IMG/VR virus record: IMGVR_UViG_3300037467_002055
Span: 1 to 64,000 of that record
DNA length: 64,000 nucleotides
Direction: 5' to 3' (one strand)
Source: a virus
Lineage: Duplodnaviria; Caudoviricetes
The notes under the pieces were generated by a model. The model was not told where the DNA came from, did no database searches, and saw only the letters and a list, made by a program, of their open reading frames with translations. The translations under genes and the position numbers were made by a program. Below are positions 3,323 through 44,881 of the stretch, in pieces. The stretch's first letter is position 1. Each line of letters starts with the position of its first letter.

Positions 3323-3694
3323 ATGCACGACATCTACCCTTTCACGCTGCCGGTCGAAATCAGCGAGCGGCTCTGGAGCCGCTTCTGGCTCGAGAATCCG
3401 GACCGCCGCGTCTCGTGGTATCGGGTGCACGCCGTGGTGAAAAGCCCGATCCACATCGAGTTTGCTGTGTACGGCTCCAGCTACGGCGATCTGCGGGCCG
3501 AGATCAGCCACAGCTACAGCGACACCATACTGTACCCGTTCATCGCCGCCGAGCAGCGCCGCGTCGCCGAGCGGGTGCTGGCCGAGCGCGAACGACTTGC
3601 CGCGGCGCTGGAACTGGAACGCAAACTGGCGGCCGTGCACCAGGAACTGTTCGGCGAACCTCTTCAACCCACCAACGAGGAGACCAACCCATGA
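3323..3694 (+). CDS. hypothetical early protein
   Basis: AAGGAG RBS; coiled-coil-like C-terminus. Confidence 0.7.
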   Translation: MHDIYPFTLPVEISERLWSRFWLENPDRRVSWYRVHAVVKSPIHIEFAVYGSSYGDLRAEISHSYSDTILYPFIAAEQRRVAERVLAERERLAAALELERKLAAVHQELFGEPLQPTNEETNP

Positions 3695-3813
3695 TGAACC
3701 TCATTTTCCACCTCGTCGCCGCTGGCGCCGTCTTCCTGCTCGGCGCGGTGGTCGGCGCCGTCATCACCGCCGACGATCCGCTCGACTGCGAGGAGCTGGA
3801 GGCGCACCGATGA
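3691..3813 (+). CDS. small membrane protein
   Basis: GAGGAG RBS; one hydrophobic helix followed by acidic tail. Confidence 0.6.
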   Translation: MMNLIFHLVAAGAVFLLGAVVGAVITADDPLDCEELEAHR

Positions 3814-4271
3814 AACCTCTCGAAAAGCAGAGCGTCGACCGAACACTGCTCGGCATCGTGCCCAGCCTGAACAGCCTGTTCGAGGCGTACGCCTACTGCA
3901 GGCAAGTGCAACTTGGGAAGCATAGCGGCACGCACACTATCCACCCGCCCGGCTACTTCTTCCTATCGTCGGAGACCGAGTCGATCAAGACCTGGGGCGA
4001 CGACCAGTTGGCCAGCATGTTCAACCAGAGCCTATATGTCAAACCACATCCCGGCGTGCGCCGGATAGTGGAAAGGTACTGCACGTCGCGCATCAACGGC
4101 GCGTCCGACGACTACATCGGATCCTTCAAGATCATCGCCTGGGAGCCGTACGGCCATGCGCTGGTCGTCGCCAGCGATTCCAACATGATCGCCAATCCTT
4201 GGGTCGCCTTCGTCTCGCTGGCCAGCCTACCCACCATCAACCTCACCACTACGGAAATCTATACGCCATGA
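3810..4271 (+). CDS. hypothetical early protein
   Basis: GGAGG RBS, ATGA overlaps. Confidence 0.7.
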   Translation: MKPLEKQSVDRTLLGIVPSLNSLFEAYAYCRQVQLGKHSGTHTIHPPGYFFLSSETESIKTWGDDQLASMFNQSLYVKPHPGVRRIVERYCTSRINGASDDYIGSFKIIAWEPYGHALVVASDSNMIANPWVAFVSLASLPTINLTTTEIYTP

Positions 4272-4594
4272 ACCTTTACTGGGCCTATCAGCGCAGTGCC
4301 TTCCACCCGCTCGGCCGCCACGCCAGCTGGGACGATGCCGCGAATTACGCCGATGGCGCGCGGCCCGGCTGGCACACCATCGTCGACGCCGGCGAGCTGA
4401 TCGACCTGTACACACAGGTCGGCACCCAACTTGGCCAGCGCGTGCCGGCGCAGATGCTGTACGTCCGGGTCGATGCCTACCTGACCGCGCTCGACCGGCT
4501 GGTCGAAGCGACCGACAGCGCGCGCCGCGCCGTGACGTCGGCCCGCGCGCAGCTGGACTCGTTCATCCGCCAGTACGCGAAAGGGCCGACGTGA
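4268..4594 (+). CDS. hypothetical early protein
   Basis: ATGA overlap; GC3-biased codons. Confidence 0.7.
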   Translation: MNLYWAYQRSAFHPLGRHASWDDAANYADGARPGWHTIVDAGELIDLYTQVGTQLGQRVPAQMLYVRVDAYLTALDRLVEATDSARRAVTSARAQLDSFIRQYAKGPT

Positions 4595-4764
4595 AGATCC
4601 TCACCCTCGACGAGAAGATCACCCTCAAAGGCGAGCTGGTGCGCATCGGCACGCCCGCATACCTACTGGTGAGGCTCTCCGCGACGCTGGCTGCGTACCT
4701 GTACTGGCGCGGCTTCGGCCGGCCGGTATCCACCTTCGCATCACCTAAGAAACGGAGAACTTGA
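4591..4764 (+). CDS. hypothetical protein (not in ORF track)
   Basis: GTG at 4591 overlaps upstream TGA; 57 codons to TGA at 4762-4764. Confidence 0.55.
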   Translation: MKILTLDEKITLKGELVRIGTPAYLLVRLSATLAAYLYWRGFGRPVSTFASPKKRRT

Positions 4765-4789
4765 CGGCAGTCAATAGCTGACCTACGAT
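4761..4789 (+). promoter_or_regulatory. sigma70-like promoter of the HNH cassette
   Basis: TTGACG-17 nt-TACGAT. Confidence 0.7.
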
Positions 4790-4934
4790 GTGTGGATCGG
4801 GCTGATAATCCGATCCCATACAACGAGTGCACGATTCAGTTTCCTCATAGCGTAGGCCAAGCAGATGCTTGGCGCTCGTTGCGGGCGTCTGCCTGCTGGA
4901 CTTATCACCCAGCCCTACGCTATGAGGAAACTGA
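4790..4934 (+). ncRNA. candidate structured cis-regulatory RNA leader
   Basis: Perfect 21-bp inverted repeat 4836-4856/4914-4934 covering RBS and the A of ATG, plus several internal stems and complementary loops (see findings). Confidence 0.7.
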
Positions 4935-5587
4935 TGTCAAAAATCATACCTATGCTTGGCCGAACCTTCGGTACCTGGACGGTAACGGCTGGCCCATTTT
5001 CGTCTGAATTGCCGAGCAAGAAGCGAGATGCTTATTGGGAAGTTACCTGCTCCTGCGGAACTATCCGCCGGCTTGACGGTAGCTCGCTTCGAGCAGGGAA
5101 GACCATTAGCTGCGGGTGCCCCTACAAAACCGCCAATAGCCTGTCACGAACCCGGTCTTATGAGGCCTGGAACAACATGCATGCCCGAACCTCAAACCCT
5201 GATCACGAGTTCTACCACTGTTATGGCGCTATCGGGATCCGAGTGTGTGAGCGCTGGCATCTGTTCAAGAATTTTTACACTGATATGGGTGATAGGCCAG
5301 ATGGCATGACCCTTGAACGAAAGGACCCTGAAGGCCACTACGAGCCTAACAACTGCGAGTGGGCTGATCGGATTGCGCAAGGCAACAACAAGCGGAATCA
5401 GGCGAAGTGGTTAATTGACGGTACCGCGATGACAGCCCGGCAGGTGCAACGACACTGGAAGATATCGCCTCGTACATCTGTGCGAATTCTTAAGTCAATG
5501 CCACTGCATTCCGGGCAGATCCCCAAGTGGCATGACCACTACCGAAAGGACTTTTATGTACAAATTTCTGATAGACCTGAAGCATGA
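4934..5587 (+). CDS. free-standing HNH homing endonuclease
   Basis: FG.WTV..CSCG..SCGC N-terminus; YEAWNNM, YG..GIRVCERW, LERKD..G.YEPNNC.WA; lower GC than flanks; GAGG RBS before 4934. Confidence 0.85.
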   Translation: MSKIIPMLGRTFGTWTVTAGPFSSELPSKKRDAYWEVTCSCGTIRRLDGSSLRAGKTISCGCPYKTANSLSRTRSYEAWNNMHARTSNPDHEFYHCYGAIGIRVCERWHLFKNFYTDMGDRPDGMTLERKDPEGHYEPNNCEWADRIAQGNNKRNQAKWLIDGTAMTARQVQRHWKISPRTSVRILKSMPLHSGQIPKWHDHYRKDFYVQISDRPEA

Positions 5588-5948
5588 TGCAGGGGCAACC
5601 CTGATCACTACGAGTGCTGCCAGCGTGGCGGCTGCGCGCGACATGGTTATGAAGGCCGAGGGCTGTCCATCAAGAGCTTTGCGTCGAATCCGCGCTGTCG
5701 ACGAGCACGGCTTCGAGATGCTGCCTGAGAACCCTACGCAGCGTCGCATTCTCAAGCCGCCGGCGGCCAACATCCGTGAAACCGACATCCCCGGTTATCG
5801 CGTTTCGGCCAGCAAGCTTCCGACCCGCTACGAGGTGCTGATCGACAAGCGCTGGCGCCGCGTGTTCACGACGCGGCACACCGGCCTGCAGTACGTGATA
5901 CATGACGGGCTGAATGTTCAGGTGGATCTGCCGAAGGACTTGGTATGA
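5556..5948 (+). CDS. hypothetical early protein
   Basis: AAGGA RBS; overlaps the HNH 3' end. Confidence 0.65.
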   Translation: MYKFLIDLKHDAGATLITTSAASVAAARDMVMKAEGCPSRALRRIRAVDEHGFEMLPENPTQRRILKPPAANIRETDIPGYRVSASKLPTRYEVLIDKRWRRVFTTRHTGLQYVIHDGLNVQVDLPKDLV

Positions 5949-6220
5949 AGACCGATCCCAGTCTGGCCAGCACATGGATCTACCTGCTGCGCAGCCGGAG
6001 CGGCATGTGGGTCGACGAGTTTGGCTACAGTTGCGGCGCAGGGACCTGGATGCGGGCCAAACATTTCTCGAATATCGGCGACGCTCGGCGCGCGATCGAG
6101 GATCCCAGCTGGCACAACGACCCGGCCGGCGTCGCTCGTTGCAAGCCGGTGAAGCTGCGCATCCACATCGAAATCGAACTACCAAAGGAGAAATCAAATG
6201 CTCAACAGGAGCAAGGTTGA
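5945..6220 (+). CDS. hypothetical early protein
   Basis: AAGGA RBS, ATGA overlap. Confidence 0.65.
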   Translation: MKTDPSLASTWIYLLRSRSGMWVDEFGYSCGAGTWMRAKHFSNIGDARRAIEDPSWHNDPAGVARCKPVKLRIHIEIELPKEKSNAQQEQG

Positions 6221-6431
6221 ATTGCTCGGCCGCGCCGCGGCCGATGTCGCCAAGTCCGCCACCGAGGTGCTGGGCCTGCACAACGAATTGCGCTACGCCG
6301 AGCAGCAGGTCGAGCTGGACGAATGGCACCCGGCTGCCGCACACCTTGCCAAGGCCAACCTCGAGGTTGCCGAGGGCATGCTGCGCGGCCTGGTCGAGGT
6401 GCTCAAGCTGCAGATCGGGGCGCTGGAATGA
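6198..6431 (+). CDS. hypothetical helical protein
   Basis: AAGGAG RBS. Confidence 0.7.
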   Translation: MLNRSKVELLGRAAADVAKSATEVLGLHNELRYAEQQVELDEWHPAAAHLAKANLEVAEGMLRGLVEVLKLQIGALE

Positions 6432-6607
6432 CCCGACTCGCCCACGCTACCGCCGGCGCGCCCGGTCTCGACGCCGAGAAGCGCGAGCTGGCCGACATCG
6501 CCCAGCATGAAATCGCCGAGGCGCGCCGCATCCAGACCCAGACCGGCTGCAGCTGGACCGAGGCGCTGCGCCTGGCCTACCAACACATTCGAAAGGAAAG
6601 CGCATGA
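6428..6607 (+). CDS. hypothetical early protein
   Basis: ATGA overlaps at both ends. Confidence 0.65.
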   Translation: MTRLAHATAGAPGLDAEKRELADIAQHEIAEARRIQTQTGCSWTEALRLAYQHIRKESA

Positions 6608-6807
6608 GTATCACCGAAAAGACCGTGTTCATCACTAGCACCAGCGAACAGTTTGACCGCGCCGAGGCTGAGTTCGAGGAGAAGGCGTACCGCCTTGGCG
6701 AGGCCATCTCGGATCAGGTCGGCTGCGTCTATGGTGCGGACGCCCGCGCTGTCGCGCGCTGGATCCTCGAACACTATGATCTGCAACCGCGGCCGGAGAC
6801 GCCATGA
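6604..6807 (+). CDS. hypothetical protein, tandem paralog 1
   Basis: AAGGA RBS; similar to 6804..7022. Confidence 0.75.
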   Translation: MSITEKTVFITSTSEQFDRAEAEFEEKAYRLGEAISDQVGCVYGADARAVARWILEHYDLQPRPETP

Positions 6808-7022
6808 ACATCAGCCAAAAAACGATCTACGTCACCGAGGACGGCATCGAGCACCCGACACTGGGAGCAGCGCAGCAGCATGTCGCAGCATACGCCGTTA
6901 TAGCCGCGCTGCATCGAGATCTCGCCGGCATCTGCGACCTCCTGCAGCATGAGGACGTCGGGATCATCGCCCGCTGGATCCTCGAACGCTACGAACTGCG
7001 GCCGGATCGGGAGGTGCCATGA
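6804..7022 (+). CDS. hypothetical protein, tandem paralog 2
   Basis: GGAG RBS; similar to 6604..6807. Confidence 0.75.
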   Translation: MNISQKTIYVTEDGIEHPTLGAAQQHVAAYAVIAALHRDLAGICDLLQHEDVGIIARWILERYELRPDREVP

Positions 7023-34067: not shown

Positions 34068-34073
34068 TTACTT

Positions 34074-34115
34074 TCCTGAAGTCTAGCTTTATGTGGTAAG
34101 CTGAGGTTTTCAGGA
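34074..34115 (+). promoter_or_regulatory. extended -10 promoter within an RBS-occluding hairpin
   Basis: TGnTAAGCT at 34094-34102; TCCTGAA/TTCAGGA and AGCTT/AAGCT stems. Confidence 0.5.
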
Positions 34116-34121
34116 GGAAAC

Positions 34122-34745
34122 ATGCATGACCCTACTGGCGAGCGGTACGGCCAGCTCACGGTGATGGGATACAGCGGGCGCAAGTACAAGAACGGTGACC
34201 GGTATGTCACCGTTCTTTGCGACTGCGGCACCGAAAAGGAGATGACGTACCCGAGTGTCAAGAGCCCGCGTGGCAGCCGCAGCTGCGGCTGCCAGCGCTG
34301 GAAGGGCGTACATCTTGCCAGCGGCACGCCGCTGTATCGGGTATGGCTTGCAATGCGTCGCCGTTGCTACTCTCCTGCTGACCGCAGCTATTCAAACTAC
34401 GGTGGGCGCGGCATCACGATATGCCGACGTTGGCGGTCGTATAGCGCATTCGCTGCTGACATGGAGCCTACGTTCAAACCTGGCCTAGTGATCGATAGGG
34501 TGCATAACAACAAGGGGTACAGCAAGGCCAATTGCCGCTGGGTTACCAGAGCAGAAAGTAACCGCAACACTCGAGCAAATATCAGCGTCCTAGTCGATGG
34601 GCAGGTGTTGTGCTTTGCAGAGATTGTCCGGCTGTACGGGACAAGGAAATATCGAAGTGCGCTGCACAGATATCGGAAAGGGCTGTCGGTCGCGGATGCG
34701 ATCGATGCGACCGATCTTGCAATCAAATTTACGGAGATAGTATGA
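34122..34745 (+). CDS. free-standing HNH homing endonuclease
   Basis: YG.LTV..CDCG..SCGC; LYRVW..MRRRC, YGGRGI.IC.RW, IDR..N.KGY...NCRW. Confidence 0.85.
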   Translation: MHDPTGERYGQLTVMGYSGRKYKNGDRYVTVLCDCGTEKEMTYPSVKSPRGSRSCGCQRWKGVHLASGTPLYRVWLAMRRRCYSPADRSYSNYGGRGITICRRWRSYSAFAADMEPTFKPGLVIDRVHNNKGYSKANCRWVTRAESNRNTRANISVLVDGQVLCFAEIVRLYGTRKYRSALHRYRKGLSVADAIDATDLAIKFTEIV

Positions 34746-38230: not shown

Positions 38231-38284
38231 TTGCCACGCTGCAGCTCCTGGTGTAGAGTTAGTTTGTTTACTTAGGGAGCTGCA
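38231..38284 (+). promoter_or_regulatory. sigma70-like promoter interleaved with an RBS-occluding hairpin
   Basis: TTGCCA-17 nt-TAGAGT; TGCAGCTCC (38240-48) / GGAGCTGCA (38276-84). Confidence 0.7.
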
Positions 38285-38950
38285 ATGATTGGGAAAGTAT
38301 TTGGAAGGCTGACTGTTATCGCCGAAGCGGAGCGCCTCAAGAAGTACGAGAGACGCTTCGTTTGCAGATGCGCTTGCGGGGGAGAGAAGACCGTCACAAG
38401 ACAGAATCTTGTGGGCGGAGGAACCTCCAGCTGTGGCTGCCTGAAGCGGGAAATGCTCCTGCAGCGTAACGCAAAACTGGCGACACACGGCATGTCCAAG
38501 ACTTCGGAGTACCTGGCCTGGATAAACATCCACAGGCGCTGCGGAGATCCGAAGGACAAGGCCTACGGTCGCTACGGCGCCGTCGGTATCAGGGTCTGCA
38601 AACGTTGGCGCACCTTCGAGAATTTTATCTCTGATATGGGGATGAAACCGACACCGGAGCACCAGATAGAGCGGCGCAAAAACTCTCAAGGCTACAGCCC
38701 GGGTAACTGCTACTGGGCCACAACGAAAGCGCAATCCCGTAACAAGTCATCTAACGTGGAAGTTGTGTACGGCGGAGAGTCGATGGTTCTCCGAGACGCC
38801 TGTAGCCGGGCTGGTCTGAACTACTGGACGGTCTGGAGCAGGATTGACAAGGGTTGGCCGCCGAAGCGGTGGTTCGAGCCGACAAACCGAAAGAATAACC
38901 CCACCCCGCCCGGCCGCCGCGCCGGGCTTCAACCTGAAAGGAAAACATGA
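38285..38950 (+). CDS. free-standing HNH homing endonuclease
   Basis: GKVFGRLTV..CRCACG..SSCGC; HGMS...EY.AW, YG..GIRVC.RW..F.NF..DMG, IER..N..GY.P.NC.WAT. Confidence 0.85.
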   Translation: MIGKVFGRLTVIAEAERLKKYERRFVCRCACGGEKTVTRQNLVGGGTSSCGCLKREMLLQRNAKLATHGMSKTSEYLAWINIHRRCGDPKDKAYGRYGAVGIRVCKRWRTFENFISDMGMKPTPEHQIERRKNSQGYSPGNCYWATTKAQSRNKSSNVEVVYGGESMVLRDACSRAGLNYWTVWSRIDKGWPPKRWFEPTNRKNNPTPPGRRAGLQPERKT

Positions 38951-41664: not shown

Positions 41665-42702
41665 ATGACACTTACGGTAGTGAATGATTGGCATTTGGGC
41701 TGTATCAGGTCGTCAGGAACGACGCCGGCGACGGCCGCCCAGCTGCGCGCCGACCTCCTGAAAGCCGGCGAAGAGATCCTGTATGGCGTCGAGGGCGATC
41801 TCCTCGTCAACGGCGACCTGTTCGATGGTCCGGACATCCCACGCGCGGATCTGCTGCAGGCGGTGCGCATCTTCAGCGACTGGCTGACGAGGACCGGGAA
41901 GCATCTGTTCCTCGCGAACGGTAATCACGACCTCGACAAGAATAGCACCCGGCTGTCGTCCTTCCAGTTTTTCGCGCAATTGCTGATCGAGATGTGGGGC
42001 CCCGAGCGCGTCACGCACATCGTCGAAGGCACGCGGCTTGAGCAGCATGATGCCTATGTAATTTGTCATGTCGCTAATCAAGACCTGTTCAATCTGGAAC
42101 TGGCCAAGGTGCCGGCGTGTCGCTTCCTGTTCGTGCACGTGAATTACGCGAACCAGTTCGCGGTCGAGTCCGACCACAGCCTGAACCTGTCGAAGGAACA
42201 GGCCGAAGCCCTGCCGGTCGAGTACATCGTGTTCGGCCACGAGCACCAGGCCCGGACCGAGCTGGGCGGCAAGGTCGTGATCGTTGGGAATCAGTTCCCG
42301 TCGTCGATCAGCGACTGCCTGGGCAACACGGACAAGGCGCTGCTGCGCGTCGAGGACGATGGGCGCTATGCGCTGCACACGACGTGGCAGGCGCCGGGCG
42401 ACTACAGCGAGCAGGACTGGCGCTCGCTCGAAGACCGGGGCCGCTTCATCCGGGTGGCCGGCACGGCCACGGCCGGCGAGGCCGACAAGGTCATGTCGGC
42501 GCTGGGCCGCTTTCGGCGCGAGGCGAACGCCCTAGTTATCACCAACGCGGTGAAGATCGAGGGCGTCACCGACGGCGAGGAGCTGCAGCTGTCGCACGAG
42601 GACGTCACCATGTTCAACGTGATGGAGGCGCTGCGCGAATACCTTGGGCCCGAGGATGCGGCCGAGGTCGACAAAATCATGGGAGAAGAAAGTGCTGCGT
42701 AA
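41665..42702 (+). CDS. SbcD/Mre11-like nuclease
   Basis: DWH, GDLFD, GNHD, GHEH metallophosphoesterase motifs; next to SbcC-like gene. Confidence 0.85.
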   Translation: MTLTVVNDWHLGCIRSSGTTPATAAQLRADLLKAGEEILYGVEGDLLVNGDLFDGPDIPRADLLQAVRIFSDWLTRTGKHLFLANGNHDLDKNSTRLSSFQFFAQLLIEMWGPERVTHIVEGTRLEQHDAYVICHVANQDLFNLELAKVPACRFLFVHVNYANQFAVESDHSLNLSKEQAEALPVEYIVFGHEHQARTELGGKVVIVGNQFPSSISDCLGNTDKALLRVEDDGRYALHTTWQAPGDYSEQDWRSLEDRGRFIRVAGTATAGEADKVMSALGRFRREANALVITNAVKIEGVTDGEELQLSHEDVTMFNVMEALREYLGPEDAAEVDKIMGEESAA

Positions 42703-44881
42703 AATTACCCTGTCCCACTTCCGCCAGCATATCGACCGAGAGTTTACTTTCGGTGATGGGATGAATGCGATTCGCGGTGATAATGAACAAGGCAAGACCA
42801 CGATTTTTGAGGCCTTCACCTATTTCTGCTTCGGCGTCGGCGCGCTGCGCGAGTCGCTCGAAGACGTCGTGACCTACCACCACCCGGTCAGCAAGCTGCG
42901 CGTCGACTGCGAGATCGAGCACCTGGGCGTGACGTACCGCGGCTACCGCGGCAAGTCCGGCGCCGAGGTCTCGTTCGGCAACGAGAAGGTCACCGGCCAG
43001 CGCGAGGTGACGAAGTTCTTCGAGAAGCTGTTCGGCACGTCAGCCGACATGGCCGGCAAGTTGATGTTCGCGTCGCAGAAATCGCTGGCCGAGTCGCTCA
43101 AGGCAGGCCCGACGGCCGCCGGCAAGATGATCGAGGACCTGGCCAACTTCGACCTGATCGACCGCGTGGCCGAAGCGATCGCGGCGCGGCGCCAGACCGG
43201 CAACACGGCCGGCGTCGAGGGCCGCATCGCGGCGCTGCAGGCGCAGCTGGTCGAGACGCCGCCTGAAGACCTTGCGCCGCTGCGCGCCGAGGTGGAGCAG
43301 GCCCAGGCTGCCGTGACGGGCGCCGAGCAGGGGCTGGCCGCGCTGCGCACTTCGCGCGCCGAGCTGGACGTCGAGCAGGCGCGCCAGATCGAACAGCGCA
43401 AGGTGCAGCTCGACCGCCTGATCGAGACGGCCACGGTCGAGATCGATGATATCGAACGCGCGCTGGCCGCGCCGGCAGTGGTAGGCCCGACCGAGAGGGA
43501 ACTTGCCGCCGCGCGCGCCGCCGTCGAGGAGGAGAAACTGTACAGCCGTGCGGCCGTGCTGCATGCCGAGCTGGTATGCGCGGACACGTCCGAGCAGTGG
43601 GACCAGAACTTGGCCTCGCTGGAAGCCGAGGTGACGAAGACGCAGGGTCGCGTCGAGATGGAAACGCAGACACTGAACAGCGTGACGCAGTCGATGACGG
43701 ATCTGGAGCGTCAGCACGCCGCGGCCATGCGCGACAGTGACGTAAAGATCGCTCAGCTGGAAGGGCGCCTGATCAAGGAATCGACCTGCGCGCTGTGCCA
43801 GAAAGATTTGGCCGACGTGCCGGAAGTGGTGCGCACGAACAGCGAGCTGCAGGCCCAAATCAACGCTGTCAGGGCGGCTGCGGTCACGGCAGCCGCCGCA
43901 GTGCGTGAGCGCCATGCTGAGCTGGAACGCGACCGACTGGCGGCCCGGGAGTCTTTGGCCGAGCAGCAGCAGTACCTCAAGGATCTGCAGGCCGTCATCG
44001 TCGCCAACGCCAAGGTCGAGCAGCTGTACGCGCGCGCCGCCGACTTCATCTCGGTCGACCGCAGCGTCGTGCCGGGCCGCTGGACGTGGACTGGCCCGGC
44101 GATCGCCGGCGAACGTCTGGACGTCGTTGGCGCGCTGGCGAGACTGGAGCGCGCCGCGCGCGCGGCGACGGCGGACGCTGCCATGCGCGCCGAGAAGCAG
44201 GCCCAGCGCGAGCGCATCAAAGTGCGCCGCGACGCTGACACCCTCGAGCGCGGCAGCCTGCAGCTGAAGGACGCGCTGGAGACGCTGGATATGGCTCAGC
44301 GCCTCGGCGCGGATATTCTCAGCGCCGAGCAAGCGCTTCGCCTGCAGCAGGCGACGTTGCAGCGCCTGCGGGCCGACCTGAACACGCGGGAAGCCCTTGC
44401 CGCCCAGGCTGCACGCCAGCTGGAGCAGACGCGCGCGCAGCTGGACGCCGCGCAGGCCGAGCTGGCCGCCATGCAGCGCTACAACCTCCTGATCAAGAAG
44501 GTGCGTGCGGCGCGCCCGGTCATCACGAACAAGCTGTGGAACATCGTGCTGGGCGGCGTCAGCAAGCACCTGTCCGAGATCCGCGACACGCCGTCGACGA
44601 TCACGCGCGCCGACGGCACGTTCAAGTGCAACGGCTTCCCGGTCTCCGGCCTGTCCGGCTCGGCCGAGGACATGCTGGGCCTGGCCATGCGCATCACGCT
44701 GACACGCACCTTTCTTCCAGGTGCGAACATGCTCCACCTGGATGAGCCGGGCGCAGCGTGCAGCGACGCGCGCGAGACACGCATGCTGGGCTTGCTGTCG
44801 AAGCTGGACTTCGGACAGATCATCATGATCAGCCATAACCCCTTGGTTGACGCCGTAGCTGATCGAATTATCACGGTGTGA
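42692..44881 (+). CDS. SbcC/Rad50-like ATPase
   Basis: G.NEQGKTT, long coiled coil, CALC zinc hook, LSGS, LHLDEP. Confidence 0.9.
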   Translation: MLRKITLSHFRQHIDREFTFGDGMNAIRGDNEQGKTTIFEAFTYFCFGVGALRESLEDVVTYHHPVSKLRVDCEIEHLGVTYRGYRGKSGAEVSFGNEKVTGQREVTKFFEKLFGTSADMAGKLMFASQKSLAESLKAGPTAAGKMIEDLANFDLIDRVAEAIAARRQTGNTAGVEGRIAALQAQLVETPPEDLAPLRAEVEQAQAAVTGAEQGLAALRTSRAELDVEQARQIEQRKVQLDRLIETATVEIDDIERALAAPAVVGPTERELAAARAAVEEEKLYSRAAVLHAELVCADTSEQWDQNLASLEAEVTKTQGRVEMETQTLNSVTQSMTDLERQHAAAMRDSDVKIAQLEGRLIKESTCALCQKDLADVPEVVRTNSELQAQINAVRAAAVTAAAAVRERHAELERDRLAARESLAEQQQYLKDLQAVIVANAKVEQLYARAADFISVDRSVVPGRWTWTGPAIAGERLDVVGALARLERAARAATADAAMRAEKQAQRERIKVRRDADTLERGSLQLKDALETLDMAQRLGADILSAEQALRLQQATLQRLRADLNTREALAAQAARQLEQTRAQLDAAQAELAAMQRYNLLIKKVRAARPVITNKLWNIVLGGVSKHLSEIRDTPSTITRADGTFKCNGFPVSGLSGSAEDMLGLAMRITLTRTFLPGANMLHLDEPGAACSDARETRMLGLLSKLDFGQIIMISHNPLVDAVADRIITV

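What the first reader, a model, noticed from the sequence alone, without database searches (positions are those of the whole stretch)
4761..4934. Switch-like structured RNA of ~145 nt gating an HNH endonuclease
Seen directly downstream of the TTGACG-17-TACGAT promoter: P1 hairpin 4790-4800/4810-4821; a PERFECT 21-bp helix 4836-4856/4914-4934 that buries the GAGG RBS and the A of ATG; inside it a three-way junction with GCAGATGC/GCGTCTGC (4861-68/4885-92) and GCTGG/CCAGC (4895-99/4909-13); loop-loop complementarity TGATAA (4803-08) with TTATCA (4902-07); and a competing 10-bp helix CAACGAGTGC (4821-30) with GCGCTCGTTG (4872-81). The competing helix can form before the RBS is transcribed, and with only a 5-nt linker it looks incompatible with the 21-bp helix. 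This is much more structure than simple RBS occlusion needs. Inference: a metastable ON/OFF switch, a ligand- or protein-sensing RNA, or an RNA partner of the nuclease. I cannot match it to a family I know.
Basis: partly seen in the sequence, partly recalled or inferred. Interest (0 to 1): 0.85.

Follow-up and report, generated by a model that had tools for sequence, protein, structure and literature searches.

The report
Conserved RBS-locking leader of phage HNH gene
A soil phage's selfish DNA-cutting (HNH) gene is preceded by a ~140-base RNA leader that buries the gene's ribosome site in a perfect 21-bp helix; the device is known from phage T4, but here it is unusually large, has no escape promoter, and is conserved almost letter for letter in a second soil sample.

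Summary
The 21-bp perfect inverted repeat (4836-4856/4914-4934) is the longest perfect one in the window, and it buries GAGG and the A of the ATG at 4934. The gene is a free-standing HNH homing-type endonuclease (phrog_374) in a low-GC cassette that a related phage lacks. Rfam, tRNA and a covariance-model search of about 85 homologous HNH loci found no relative. One independent soil-metagenome contig does carry 4794-4936 with only 2 changes in 143 nt. Its promoter spacer (9/17 identical) and HNH coding sequence (<85%) have diverged, but TACGAT is kept. The conserved block therefore runs from about the transcription start to the AUG, which points to a functional 5' UTR. The two paralogous HNH genes in the genome have short RBS hairpins with a promoter -10 in the loop (T4 I-TevI logic). 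This leader has no promoter-like site inside the structure, so every transcript can lock itself. Most likely it is a cis translational lock released only briefly, by delayed folding as in MS2 or by RNase III. Nothing supports ligand sensing. Nascent-chain folds favour the competing helix, but the statistics are modest and no covariation is available. This scan has found RBS hairpins at HNH genes many times on other DNA. Verdict: a new variant of a known kind.

The parts
4761..4789 (+). Sigma-70-like promoter TTGACG-17-TACGAT. The stop codon of the upstream 57-aa ORF (4762-4764) lies inside the -35.
   Evidence: Found by the scan. In the independent contig of run X2, TACGAT and the visible ACG of the -35 are kept with the same spacing, while only 9 of 17 spacer bases are identical.
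4794..4936 (+). Conserved block equal to the inferred 5' UTR, from about +1 to the AUG (143 nt).
   Evidence: The X2 contig matches it with 2 other letters and no gaps, and its flanks are unlike. Differences are 2/143 in the block against 17/60 in the flanks, Fisher p = 1.7e-8.
4796..4814 (+). P1 hairpin (6 bp, loop GCTGATA-A). The outer extension 4790-95/4816-21 probably lies upstream of the TSS and is not conserved in X2.
   Evidence: P1 alone has z = -2.9.
4821..4830 (+). 5' strand of the competing 10-bp helix, which pairs with 4872-4881.
   Evidence: It is in the MFE of nascent chains ending at 4882-4913. Shuffle P = 0.005.
4836..4856 (+). 5' arm of the lock (anti-SD strand) of the perfect 21-bp helix.
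   Evidence: The duplex energy is -37.5 kcal/mol.
4857..4872 (+). Inner hairpin CCAAGC-AGAT-GCTTGG stacked on the 21-bp helix. The in-frame ATG at 4865 sits in its loop.
   Evidence: MFE.
4872..4881 (+). 3' strand of the competing 10-bp helix.
4895..4913 (+). Inner hairpin GCTGG/CCAGC. Its loop TTATCA is complementary to the P1 loop TGATAA. The hairpin is roughly an inverted copy of P1.
   Evidence: Shuffle P = 0.002 for the 6-nt match.
4914..4934 (+). 3' arm of the lock. It contains the in-frame ATG at 4922, the SD GAGG at 4925-4928 and the A of the start codon.
   Evidence: Mean unpaired probability of -13..+3 is 0.08.
4934..5587 (+). HNH-1, a 217-aa free-standing HNH homing-type endonuclease gene with low GC3 (0.57, against 0.72-0.86 in the flanking phage genes and the DNA polymerase). 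Its 3' end overlaps the next gene, which starts at 5556.
   Evidence: phrog_374, E = 1.7e-47. The start fits the N-termini of 15 homologues. GC3. The related phage has no HNH at this place.
38231..38287 (+). Comparison: the leader of paralogue HNH-3. A 9-bp RBS hairpin (38240-48/38276-84) has the -10 of TTGCCA-17-TAGAGT in its loop.
34068..34124 (+). Comparison: the leader of paralogue HNH-2. A short anti-SD hairpin (TTTCCTGAA / TTCAGGAGGAAA) has TGGTAAGCT (extended -10-like) in its loop.
   Evidence: Unpaired probability is 0.11.

Best explanation
The stretch 4794-4936 is the 5' untranslated leader of a mobile HNH endonuclease gene, and it acts in cis as a translational lock.

Shown in silico: at equilibrium a 21-bp perfect helix, extended by stacked pairs, holds the Shine-Dalgarno sequence and the start codon in a duplex. 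No promoter-like site lies inside the structure, so read-through transcripts and transcripts from the gene's own promoter can all lock.

Inferred: the nuclease is made only in a short window. While the RNA is being made, the upstream strand 4821-4830 pairs with 4872-4881, possibly helped by the TGATAA/TTATCA contact. This encloses the anti-SD arm in a loop, so the SD emerges free. Ribosomes can load until the RNA refolds into the far more stable lock. This is a folding timer of the kind known for the MS2 maturation gene and hok mRNA. Cleavage of the perfect duplex by RNase III may add to this route or replace it.

The purpose is to keep a potentially harmful selfish nuclease at a very low dose. 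Near-identity of the whole leader between two samples with diverged flanks fits an RNA in which most bases serve two alternative pairings.
For: - The helix and the occlusion are real and extreme. It is 21 bp perfect, with z = -8.3. It is the longest RBS-covering helix among 86 starts of homologous HNH genes, where the next are 15, 13 and 12 bp.
- The gene is an HNH homing-type endonuclease in a foreign-composition cassette that a related phage lacks at this place.
- The conserved block coincides with TSS-to-AUG. It is 141/143 identical, against a 9/17 promoter spacer and <85% coding, and TACGAT is kept. That argues for function at the RNA level and for a real promoter upstream of the structure.
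- I saw no convincing -35/-10 pair between the arms when reading the sequence, and the consensus scan reports only the upstream promoter in 3500-7000. The two paralogues do have a -10 in their hairpin loops.
- MFEs of chains ending at 4882-4913 contain the 10-bp competing helix, and the fold switches once the 3' arm is present. The direct-path barrier from the open to the locked fold is estimated at 17-22 kcal/mol.
- The competing helix and the loop match are each unlikely by shuffling, P = 0.005 and 0.002.
- Precedents: RBS-sequestering hairpins at T4 I-TevI, I-TevII, I-TevIII and segB and at Aeh1 mobE (PMC2988022), and the MS2 maturation-gene cloverleaf with a kinetic trap (PMC4615214).
Against: - There is no transcript, probing or expression data.
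- There is no covariation. The one close relative is nearly identical, and a single-sequence covariance model finds nothing in about 85 loci with homologous HNH genes or in two related phage genomes.
- Energy-based statistics for everything except the 21-bp helix are weak, with z from -1.4 to -2.4. The helix tests are post hoc.
- The open fold is 22-28 kcal/mol less stable than the lock. The barrier estimate ignores pseudoknotted intermediates, so the lifetime of the open state is unknown.
- Near-identity of the leader could also reflect a recent exchange of this segment.
- The second sample is represented by one 421-nt contig at depth 4.
- Both strands fold equally well.
Confidence: 0.5

Rival explanations
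1. Plain constitutive occlusion. The 21-bp hairpin simply keeps the HNH gene nearly silent on all transcripts. On this view the other complementarities are chance, and the near-identity with the second sample is a recent recombinational exchange.
For: RBS hairpins recur in this HNH family and in both paralogues. Without the 3' arm the fold is only mildly unusual, z from -1.4 to -2.4. HNH-1 departs from the family at two of six nearly invariant positions, so it may be decaying.
Against: A helix of about -37 kcal/mol would silence the gene completely, which is hard to reconcile with keeping an open 217-codon frame and a conserved promoter. Loops and linker are as conserved as the arms. The block's edges coincide with the TSS and the AUG, whereas recombination would place them arbitrarily.
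Confidence: 0.2
2. RNase III processing site. The uninterrupted 21-24 bp duplex is cut by host RNase III. The cut separates the anti-SD arm from the RBS, which either activates translation or destroys the message.
For: The duplex is perfect and at least 21 bp, the longest in the window. From general knowledge, about two helical turns of regular dsRNA is the classical RNase III substrate, and phage leaders (T7 early mRNAs, the lambda N leader) are processed this way.
Against: There is no cleavage data. The host is unknown. This does not explain conservation of P1 and the linker. It is compatible with the best explanation rather than exclusive of it.
Confidence: 0.13
3. Sensor RNA. The leader binds a small ligand, or a protein such as the HNH enzyme itself or a phage translational repressor or activator, which shifts the balance between the open and locked folds.
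For: The whole leader is conserved at the sequence level. A multi-arm junction inside the helix and a possible loop-loop contact are present.
Against: No Rfam family matches even at E up to 10. The element is absent from about 85 other loci of the HNH family. No ligand could plausibly overcome a 22-28 kcal/mol difference between the folds, except during transcription.
Confidence: 0.1
4. DNA-level element. On this view the repeat acts as a miniature inverted-repeat transposon, an operator pair, or a cruciform or recombination site, with no RNA role.
For: The repeat is perfect with no G-U pairs, and both strands fold alike. The phage encodes an SbcC-like protein.
Against: I saw no target-site duplication beside the arms. 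There is no other copy in the genome, in IMG/VR, in JGI metagenomes or in GTDB genomes. The SD and start codon are built into one arm. Three further helices contain G-U pairs that would be A-C mismatches on the other strand. The conserved block is bounded by the TSS and the AUG.
Confidence: 0.05

Closest known systems
RBS-sequestering hairpins of T-even phage homing endonuclease genes (I-TevI, I-TevII, I-TevIII, segB; mobE of phage Aeh1), reviewed in PMC2988022
   Same: A stable hairpin buries the SD and start of a selfish endonuclease gene that lies in a polycistronic phage transcript. The two paralogues in this same genome (34122 and 38285) follow this design, with a -10 in the loop.
   Different: There the promoter sits inside or after the 5' arm, so the gene's own transcript escapes. 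Here the conserved promoter is about 45 nt upstream of the 5' arm and I found no internal promoter-like site. The helix is 21 bp perfect, with a 57-nt structured loop and a 5' hairpin. The host promoter type is sigma-70-like rather than T4 late.
5' UTR of the maturation (A-protein) gene of RNA phage MS2: cloverleaf with a long-distance SD pairing and a kinetic-trap hairpin (PMC4615214; Groeneveld 1995, Poot 1997 and van Meerten 2001 as cited there)
   Same: A 5' hairpin is followed by an upstream complementary strand that pairs with the SD and closes a multi-arm junction. A competing local helix can form first and delay closure, so that translation is confined to nascent RNA.
   Different: MS2 pairs 7 nt with the SD, while this leader pairs 21 bp. 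MS2 is an RNA genome, while this is an mRNA of a dsDNA phage. In MS2 the trap was proven by mutants and covariation, while here it is only predicted.
hok and other type I toxin mRNAs with metastable 5' structures (PMC6733600; from knowledge: Gerdes and colleagues)
   Same: A harmful protein is kept untranslated by long-range pairing of the translation start region. Transient co-transcriptional folds order the events.
   Different: Those systems use an antisense RNA and 3' processing. No antisense promoter or complementary RNA was found in this genome.
RNase III-processed phage leaders (T7 early mRNAs, lambda N leader; from knowledge, not checked here)
   Same: A long duplex lies just upstream of, or across, a translation start.
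   Different: Natural RNase III sites usually carry internal loops, while this duplex is perfect. Cleavage was not tested.

Membership tests
T-even type hairpin/promoter control of homing endonuclease genes | A stable RNA hairpin includes the SD and/or start codon | tested here: met
   The 21-bp helix contains GAGG 4925-28 and A4934. Unpaired probability is 0.08.
T-even type hairpin/promoter control of homing endonuclease genes | The regulated gene is a homing-type endonuclease embedded in a longer phage transcription unit | tested here: met
   phrog_374 HNH, E = 1.7e-47. All neighbouring genes are on the + strand with no terminator between them. Nuclease activity was not tested.
T-even type hairpin/promoter control of homing endonuclease genes | A promoter is placed so that its transcript lacks the 5' arm and escapes the lock | tested here: not met
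   The only promoter-like site (4761-4789) is upstream of the whole structure and is the one conserved in X2. I saw no acceptable -35/-10 pair in 4836-4925. Host or phage promoter types other than sigma-70 cannot be excluded.
[quoted passage not shown] | An upstream strand pairs with the SD over a long distance, closing a multi-arm junction, and is preceded by a 5' hairpin | tested here: met
   The MFE has P1, then the 21-bp closing helix around 3-4 small arms. This is in silico only.
[quoted passage not shown] | A metastable helix forms first and competes with closure | tested here: inconclusive
   The helix is in the MFE of chains ending at 4882-4913 when the chain starts at 4790. With a start at 4796 the nascent MFE uses a different long-range pairing. 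P = 0.005 by the helix-length shuffle, but z = -1.4 by energy.
[quoted passage not shown] | Translation comes only from nascent, not equilibrated, RNA | not testable with these tools
   This needs in vitro or in vivo translation of nascent versus renatured RNA.
Any Rfam family (riboswitches, ribozymes, HEARO/omega RNA, group I introns, leaders) | A covariance-model match | tested here: not met
   cmscan of 4000-6500 at E up to 10 gave only two unrelated weak hits elsewhere. ARAGORN found nothing.
HNH homing endonuclease (phage family phrog_374) | Profile match and the family's conserved motifs | tested here: met
   E = 1.7e-47. The CxC...CGC pairs and the Y-x3-NC-x-W...N motif are kept. However, there is no Pfam HNH hit, and two of six nearly invariant positions differ (H68 is N, C86 is T).
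RNase III substrate | About two turns of uninterrupted dsRNA | tested here: met
   21 perfect pairs, 24 with the extension. Cleavage itself is not testable here.
Intrinsic terminator | A GC-rich hairpin followed by a U tract | tested here: not met
   There is no T run after either arm on either strand.
MITE / small transposon | Terminal inverted repeats, a target-site duplication and multiple copies | tested here: not met
   Inverted repeats are present, but there is no flanking direct repeat. It is single-copy in the genome and absent from the public collections scanned.

The most novel reading that the evidence does not exclude
The leader is the first member of an undescribed class of about 140-nt bistable 5' UTR RNAs on homing-endonuclease genes of dsDNA phages. 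It would act as a self-contained folding timer, or as a factor-triggered switch, with two mutually exclusive folds. One fold is P1 or the IR-a pairing plus the 10-bp helix. The other is the 21-bp lock. Under this reading the dose of a selfish nuclease is set by RNA folding kinetics instead of by promoter placement.
Probability: 0.3. Interest if true: 0.7.

Novelty: new variant of a known kind. Interest (0 to 1): 0.55.

Why it matters
Homing endonucleases must be expressed enough to spread but not enough to harm their carrier. The textbook solution in T4 couples an RBS hairpin to a late promoter inside it. This leader keeps the hairpin principle but drops the escape promoter, enlarges the lock to a perfect 21-bp duplex, and conserves the whole 5' UTR. 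That suggests a different release mechanism, either folding kinetics or RNase III. If confirmed, it would bring the delayed-folding logic of RNA phages and toxin mRNAs to the control of selfish genes in DNA phages. It would also provide a compact, portable off-by-default translation gate. If the extras prove to be chance, it is just a very strong example of a known trick.

Tried and rejected
- Rfam at E up to 10 gave no family over the leader. There is no tRNA or tmRNA.
- BLAST of the locus against 50,697 phage records, in both near and distant modes, gave no match.
- Exact scans for the arms, P1 and the inner loop found nothing in IMG/VR or JGI metagenomes. A 17-mer in GTDB genomes gave 17 single hits, no more than chance expects, and none paired.
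- A single-sequence covariance model was run over the window, about 85 HNH-homologue loci and phage records G001 and G002. It matched only itself.
- Protein search found no relative above about 41% identity over most of the length. A search with the N-terminal 89 aa for the short fragment expected from the second sample found nothing.
80 IMG/VR loci were used instead.
- Sequencing runs: no RNA holder is listed, so nothing can be said about expression.
- Short 34-35-nt pieces at about 86% identity in run X1 are at chance level by my estimate.
- A group I intron was rejected. There is no Rfam hit, and the HNH stop overlaps the next gene's start, leaving no room for a 3' half.
- A hammerhead-like CUGAUG was rejected because the core is incomplete and there is no Rfam hit.
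- A minus-strand ORF at 4832-4563 driven by the mirrored RBS was rejected. GC3 favours the plus-strand ORF 4591-4764.
- A trans-acting complementary RNA in the phage was rejected. Only five 11-12-mers are shared with the rest of the genome, about the number expected by chance.
- An RNA thermometer was rejected because a 21-bp perfect duplex is far too stable.

Full report
**What is there.** The window is the first 64 kb of an 82.5-kb IMG/VR phage record from a soil metagenome. It encodes a tape-measure protein, tail proteins, DNA polymerase, primase, helicase and an SbcC-like protein, and I found no phage RNA polymerase. Its polymerase is only about 30% identical to any isolated phage, so the host is unknown.

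Positions 4934-5587 encode a 217-aa protein that matches PHROG 374, 'HNH endonuclease', at E = 1.7e-47. It has no Pfam hit. The start at 4934 agrees with the N-termini of 15 homologues. The family is widespread in phages and is annotated as HNH endonuclease in RefSeq records.

The gene and the 170 nt before it have about 54% GC, against about 64% around them, and GC3 is 0.57 against 0.72-0.86. A related 87.6-kb phage (L007/G001) shares the genes on both sides but has two unrelated small ORFs at this place and no HNH. This is therefore a free-standing mobile endonuclease cassette.

**The observation.** The 21-nt arms at 4836-4856 and 4914-4934 are exact reverse complements, and they form the longest perfect inverted repeat in the window. 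The 3' arm contains GAGG (4925-28) and the A of the start codon.

The RNA fold of 4786-4945 is -81.2 kcal/mol, 8.3 standard deviations below dinucleotide shuffles. The mean unpaired probability of the RBS region is 0.08. TTGACG-17-TACGAT at 4761-4789 is the only promoter-like site the scan finds in 3500-7000.

Two qualifications apply. Also, the z-score is almost entirely due to the 21-bp helix. Without the 3' arm, z is about -2.4, and for 4815-4913 it is -1.4.

**Is the extra structure more than chance?** Helix-length shuffles give P = 0.005 for the 10-bp helix 4821-30/4872-81 and P = 0.002 for the TGATAA/TTATCA loop match. The 8-bp inner helix gives P = 0.09. These tests are post hoc.

I also noticed that the hairpin at 4895-4913 is roughly an inverted copy of P1. 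The pairings 4799-4811/4898-4910 and 4821-30/4872-81 are nearly concentric (centre near 4852), while the 21-bp repeat is centred at 4885. The sequence therefore offers two large, mutually exclusive folds.

MFEs of growing chains that start at 4790 and end at 4882-4913 contain the 10-bp helix with the anti-SD arm in its loop. Once the 3' arm is added, the MFE switches to the lock. The open fold is 22-28 kcal/mol less stable than the lock. A direct-path estimate of the barrier is 17-22 kcal/mol, but this ignores pseudoknotted intermediates and is only a rough upper bound.

**Comparative evidence.** Nothing matched in the following searches:
- Rfam.
- Phage records.
- IMG/VR, JGI metagenomes and GTDB genomes.
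- A covariance-model search of about 85 loci with homologous HNH genes and of two related phage genomes.

The best protein relatives are only about 40% identical, so classical covariation analysis is impossible.

Laying Logan contigs gave one decisive datum. A 421-nt contig from a different soil sample and study matches 4794-4936 with 2 differences and no gaps, while both flanks fall below the alignment threshold.
- The 30 nt before it are 18/30 identical to the window. They keep TACGAT and the ACG of the -35 at the same spacing, but only 9 of 17 spacer bases are identical.
- The 30 nt after the ATG encode MKLTPMLGRTF, against MSKIIPMLGRTF in the window. That is one codon shorter and 25/30 identical after a 3-nt gap.
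- The remaining ~213 of the 243 nt beyond the match are less than 85% alike.

Differences are 2/143 inside the block against 17/60 outside it, p = 1.7e-8. The conserved block thus begins about 5 nt after the -10, that is, about at the expected start of transcription, and ends exactly at the start codon.

I draw four conclusions from this:
- The sequence is not an assembly artefact.
- The promoter is probably real.
- The whole 5' UTR is under constraint, loops and linker included, not only the two arms.
- The constraint follows transcript boundaries, which favours an RNA-level function.

A recent exchange of just this segment cannot be excluded. The second sample is represented by one low-depth contig.

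**Context within the family.** The genome has three paralogous HNH genes. HNH-3 (38285) has a 9-bp RBS hairpin with the -10 of TTGCCA-17-TAGAGT in its loop. HNH-2 (34122) has a short anti-SD hairpin with TGGTAAGCT in its loop.

Both follow the logic described for T4 I-TevI, I-TevII, I-TevIII and segB and for Aeh1 mobE. Read-through RNA is locked, and the local transcript starts inside the hairpin and escapes (PMC2988022). Among 86 homologous gene starts, several others have 12-15 bp RBS helices, some with -10-like hexamers next to or inside the arms.

HNH-1 is the extreme case at 21 bp. It differs in kind because its conserved promoter lies upstream of the whole structure and I found no promoter-like site between the arms.

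**Mechanism.** Shown in silico: all transcripts that cross 4836-4934 can bury the RBS in a duplex of about -37 kcal/mol, which at equilibrium would abolish initiation.

Inferred: since an intact frame and promoter are kept, there must be a release route. I consider delayed folding the most likely. The 10-bp helix and the P1/4895-4913 contact form first. The SD then emerges single-stranded, and a few ribosomes load before the lock closes.

This is the principle proven for the MS2 maturation gene, whose 5' UTR has the same layout: a 5' hairpin, an upstream strand pairing with the SD, a multi-arm junction and a metastable hairpin (PMC4615214). Dual use of most bases in two folds would also explain conservation at the sequence level.

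RNase III cleavage of the perfect duplex is an obvious alternative or additional route. A ligand or protein sensor, a DNA-level element and an RNA partner of the nuclease are less likely, for the reasons given under the rival explanations.

**Verdict.** This is a real, discrete, conserved RBS-gating leader, and whether it switches is predicted but unproven. The kind, an RBS lock on a homing endonuclease gene, is known, and this scan has met it many times on other DNA. The architecture and the missing escape promoter make it a new variant.

Noticed in passing
window 38231-38287 and 34068-34124: Both paralogous HNH genes have short RBS-sequestering hairpins with a -10-like hexamer in the loop (TAGAGT and TGGTAAGCT). 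The HNH gene of the related phage has TGTGGTAGAGT in the same relative place (L012, about 1450-1462). This suggests a shared promoter type that travels with these cassettes.
   Followed up: partly
window 4934-5587 (protein residues 68, 86, 99-100): HNH-1 differs from 15 homologues at two of six nearly invariant positions (H68 is N, C86 is T). It also reads YGAIGI where most homologues have YGGRGI (both in-genome paralogues also vary here). The enzyme may be altered or decaying.
   Followed up: no
window 4865, 4922, 4934: Three in-frame ATGs have no stop between them. ATG 4865 sits in the tetraloop of the inner hairpin, 9 nt after an AGG in the anti-SD arm. A 240-aa N-terminally extended isoform is therefore formally possible when the lock is open.
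   Followed up: no
window 5556-5587: The 3' end of HNH-1 overlaps the start of the next gene by 32 nt. The first ~35 nt of that gene are AT-rich compared with its homologue in the related phage (L007:4001-4040). This may be a trace of the insertion or of co-conversion.
   Followed up: no
genome 80918-80929 (beyond the window), promoter-like site at 80882: A 12-nt stretch complementary to leader positions 4796-4807 lies just after a promoter-like CTGACA-17-GATAGT site. The number of such matches is at chance level.
   Followed up: partly
window 5801-5883 (-): A weak Rfam match to M23 RNA (26 bits, gathering score 41.2, E = 0.034), probably chance.
   Followed up: no
L084:886-928 and L095:930-988: Distant HNH homologues in other uncultured phages carry 13- and 15-bp RBS hairpins with TAATAT- or TATATT-like hexamers beside or inside the arms. 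These look like further I-TevI-style cases.
   Followed up: partly
window 42644-44881: The phage encodes an SbcC-like subunit of a palindrome-specific nuclease (phrog_77, E = 1.2e-28). This is of interest given the long perfect inverted repeat in its own DNA.
   Followed up: no
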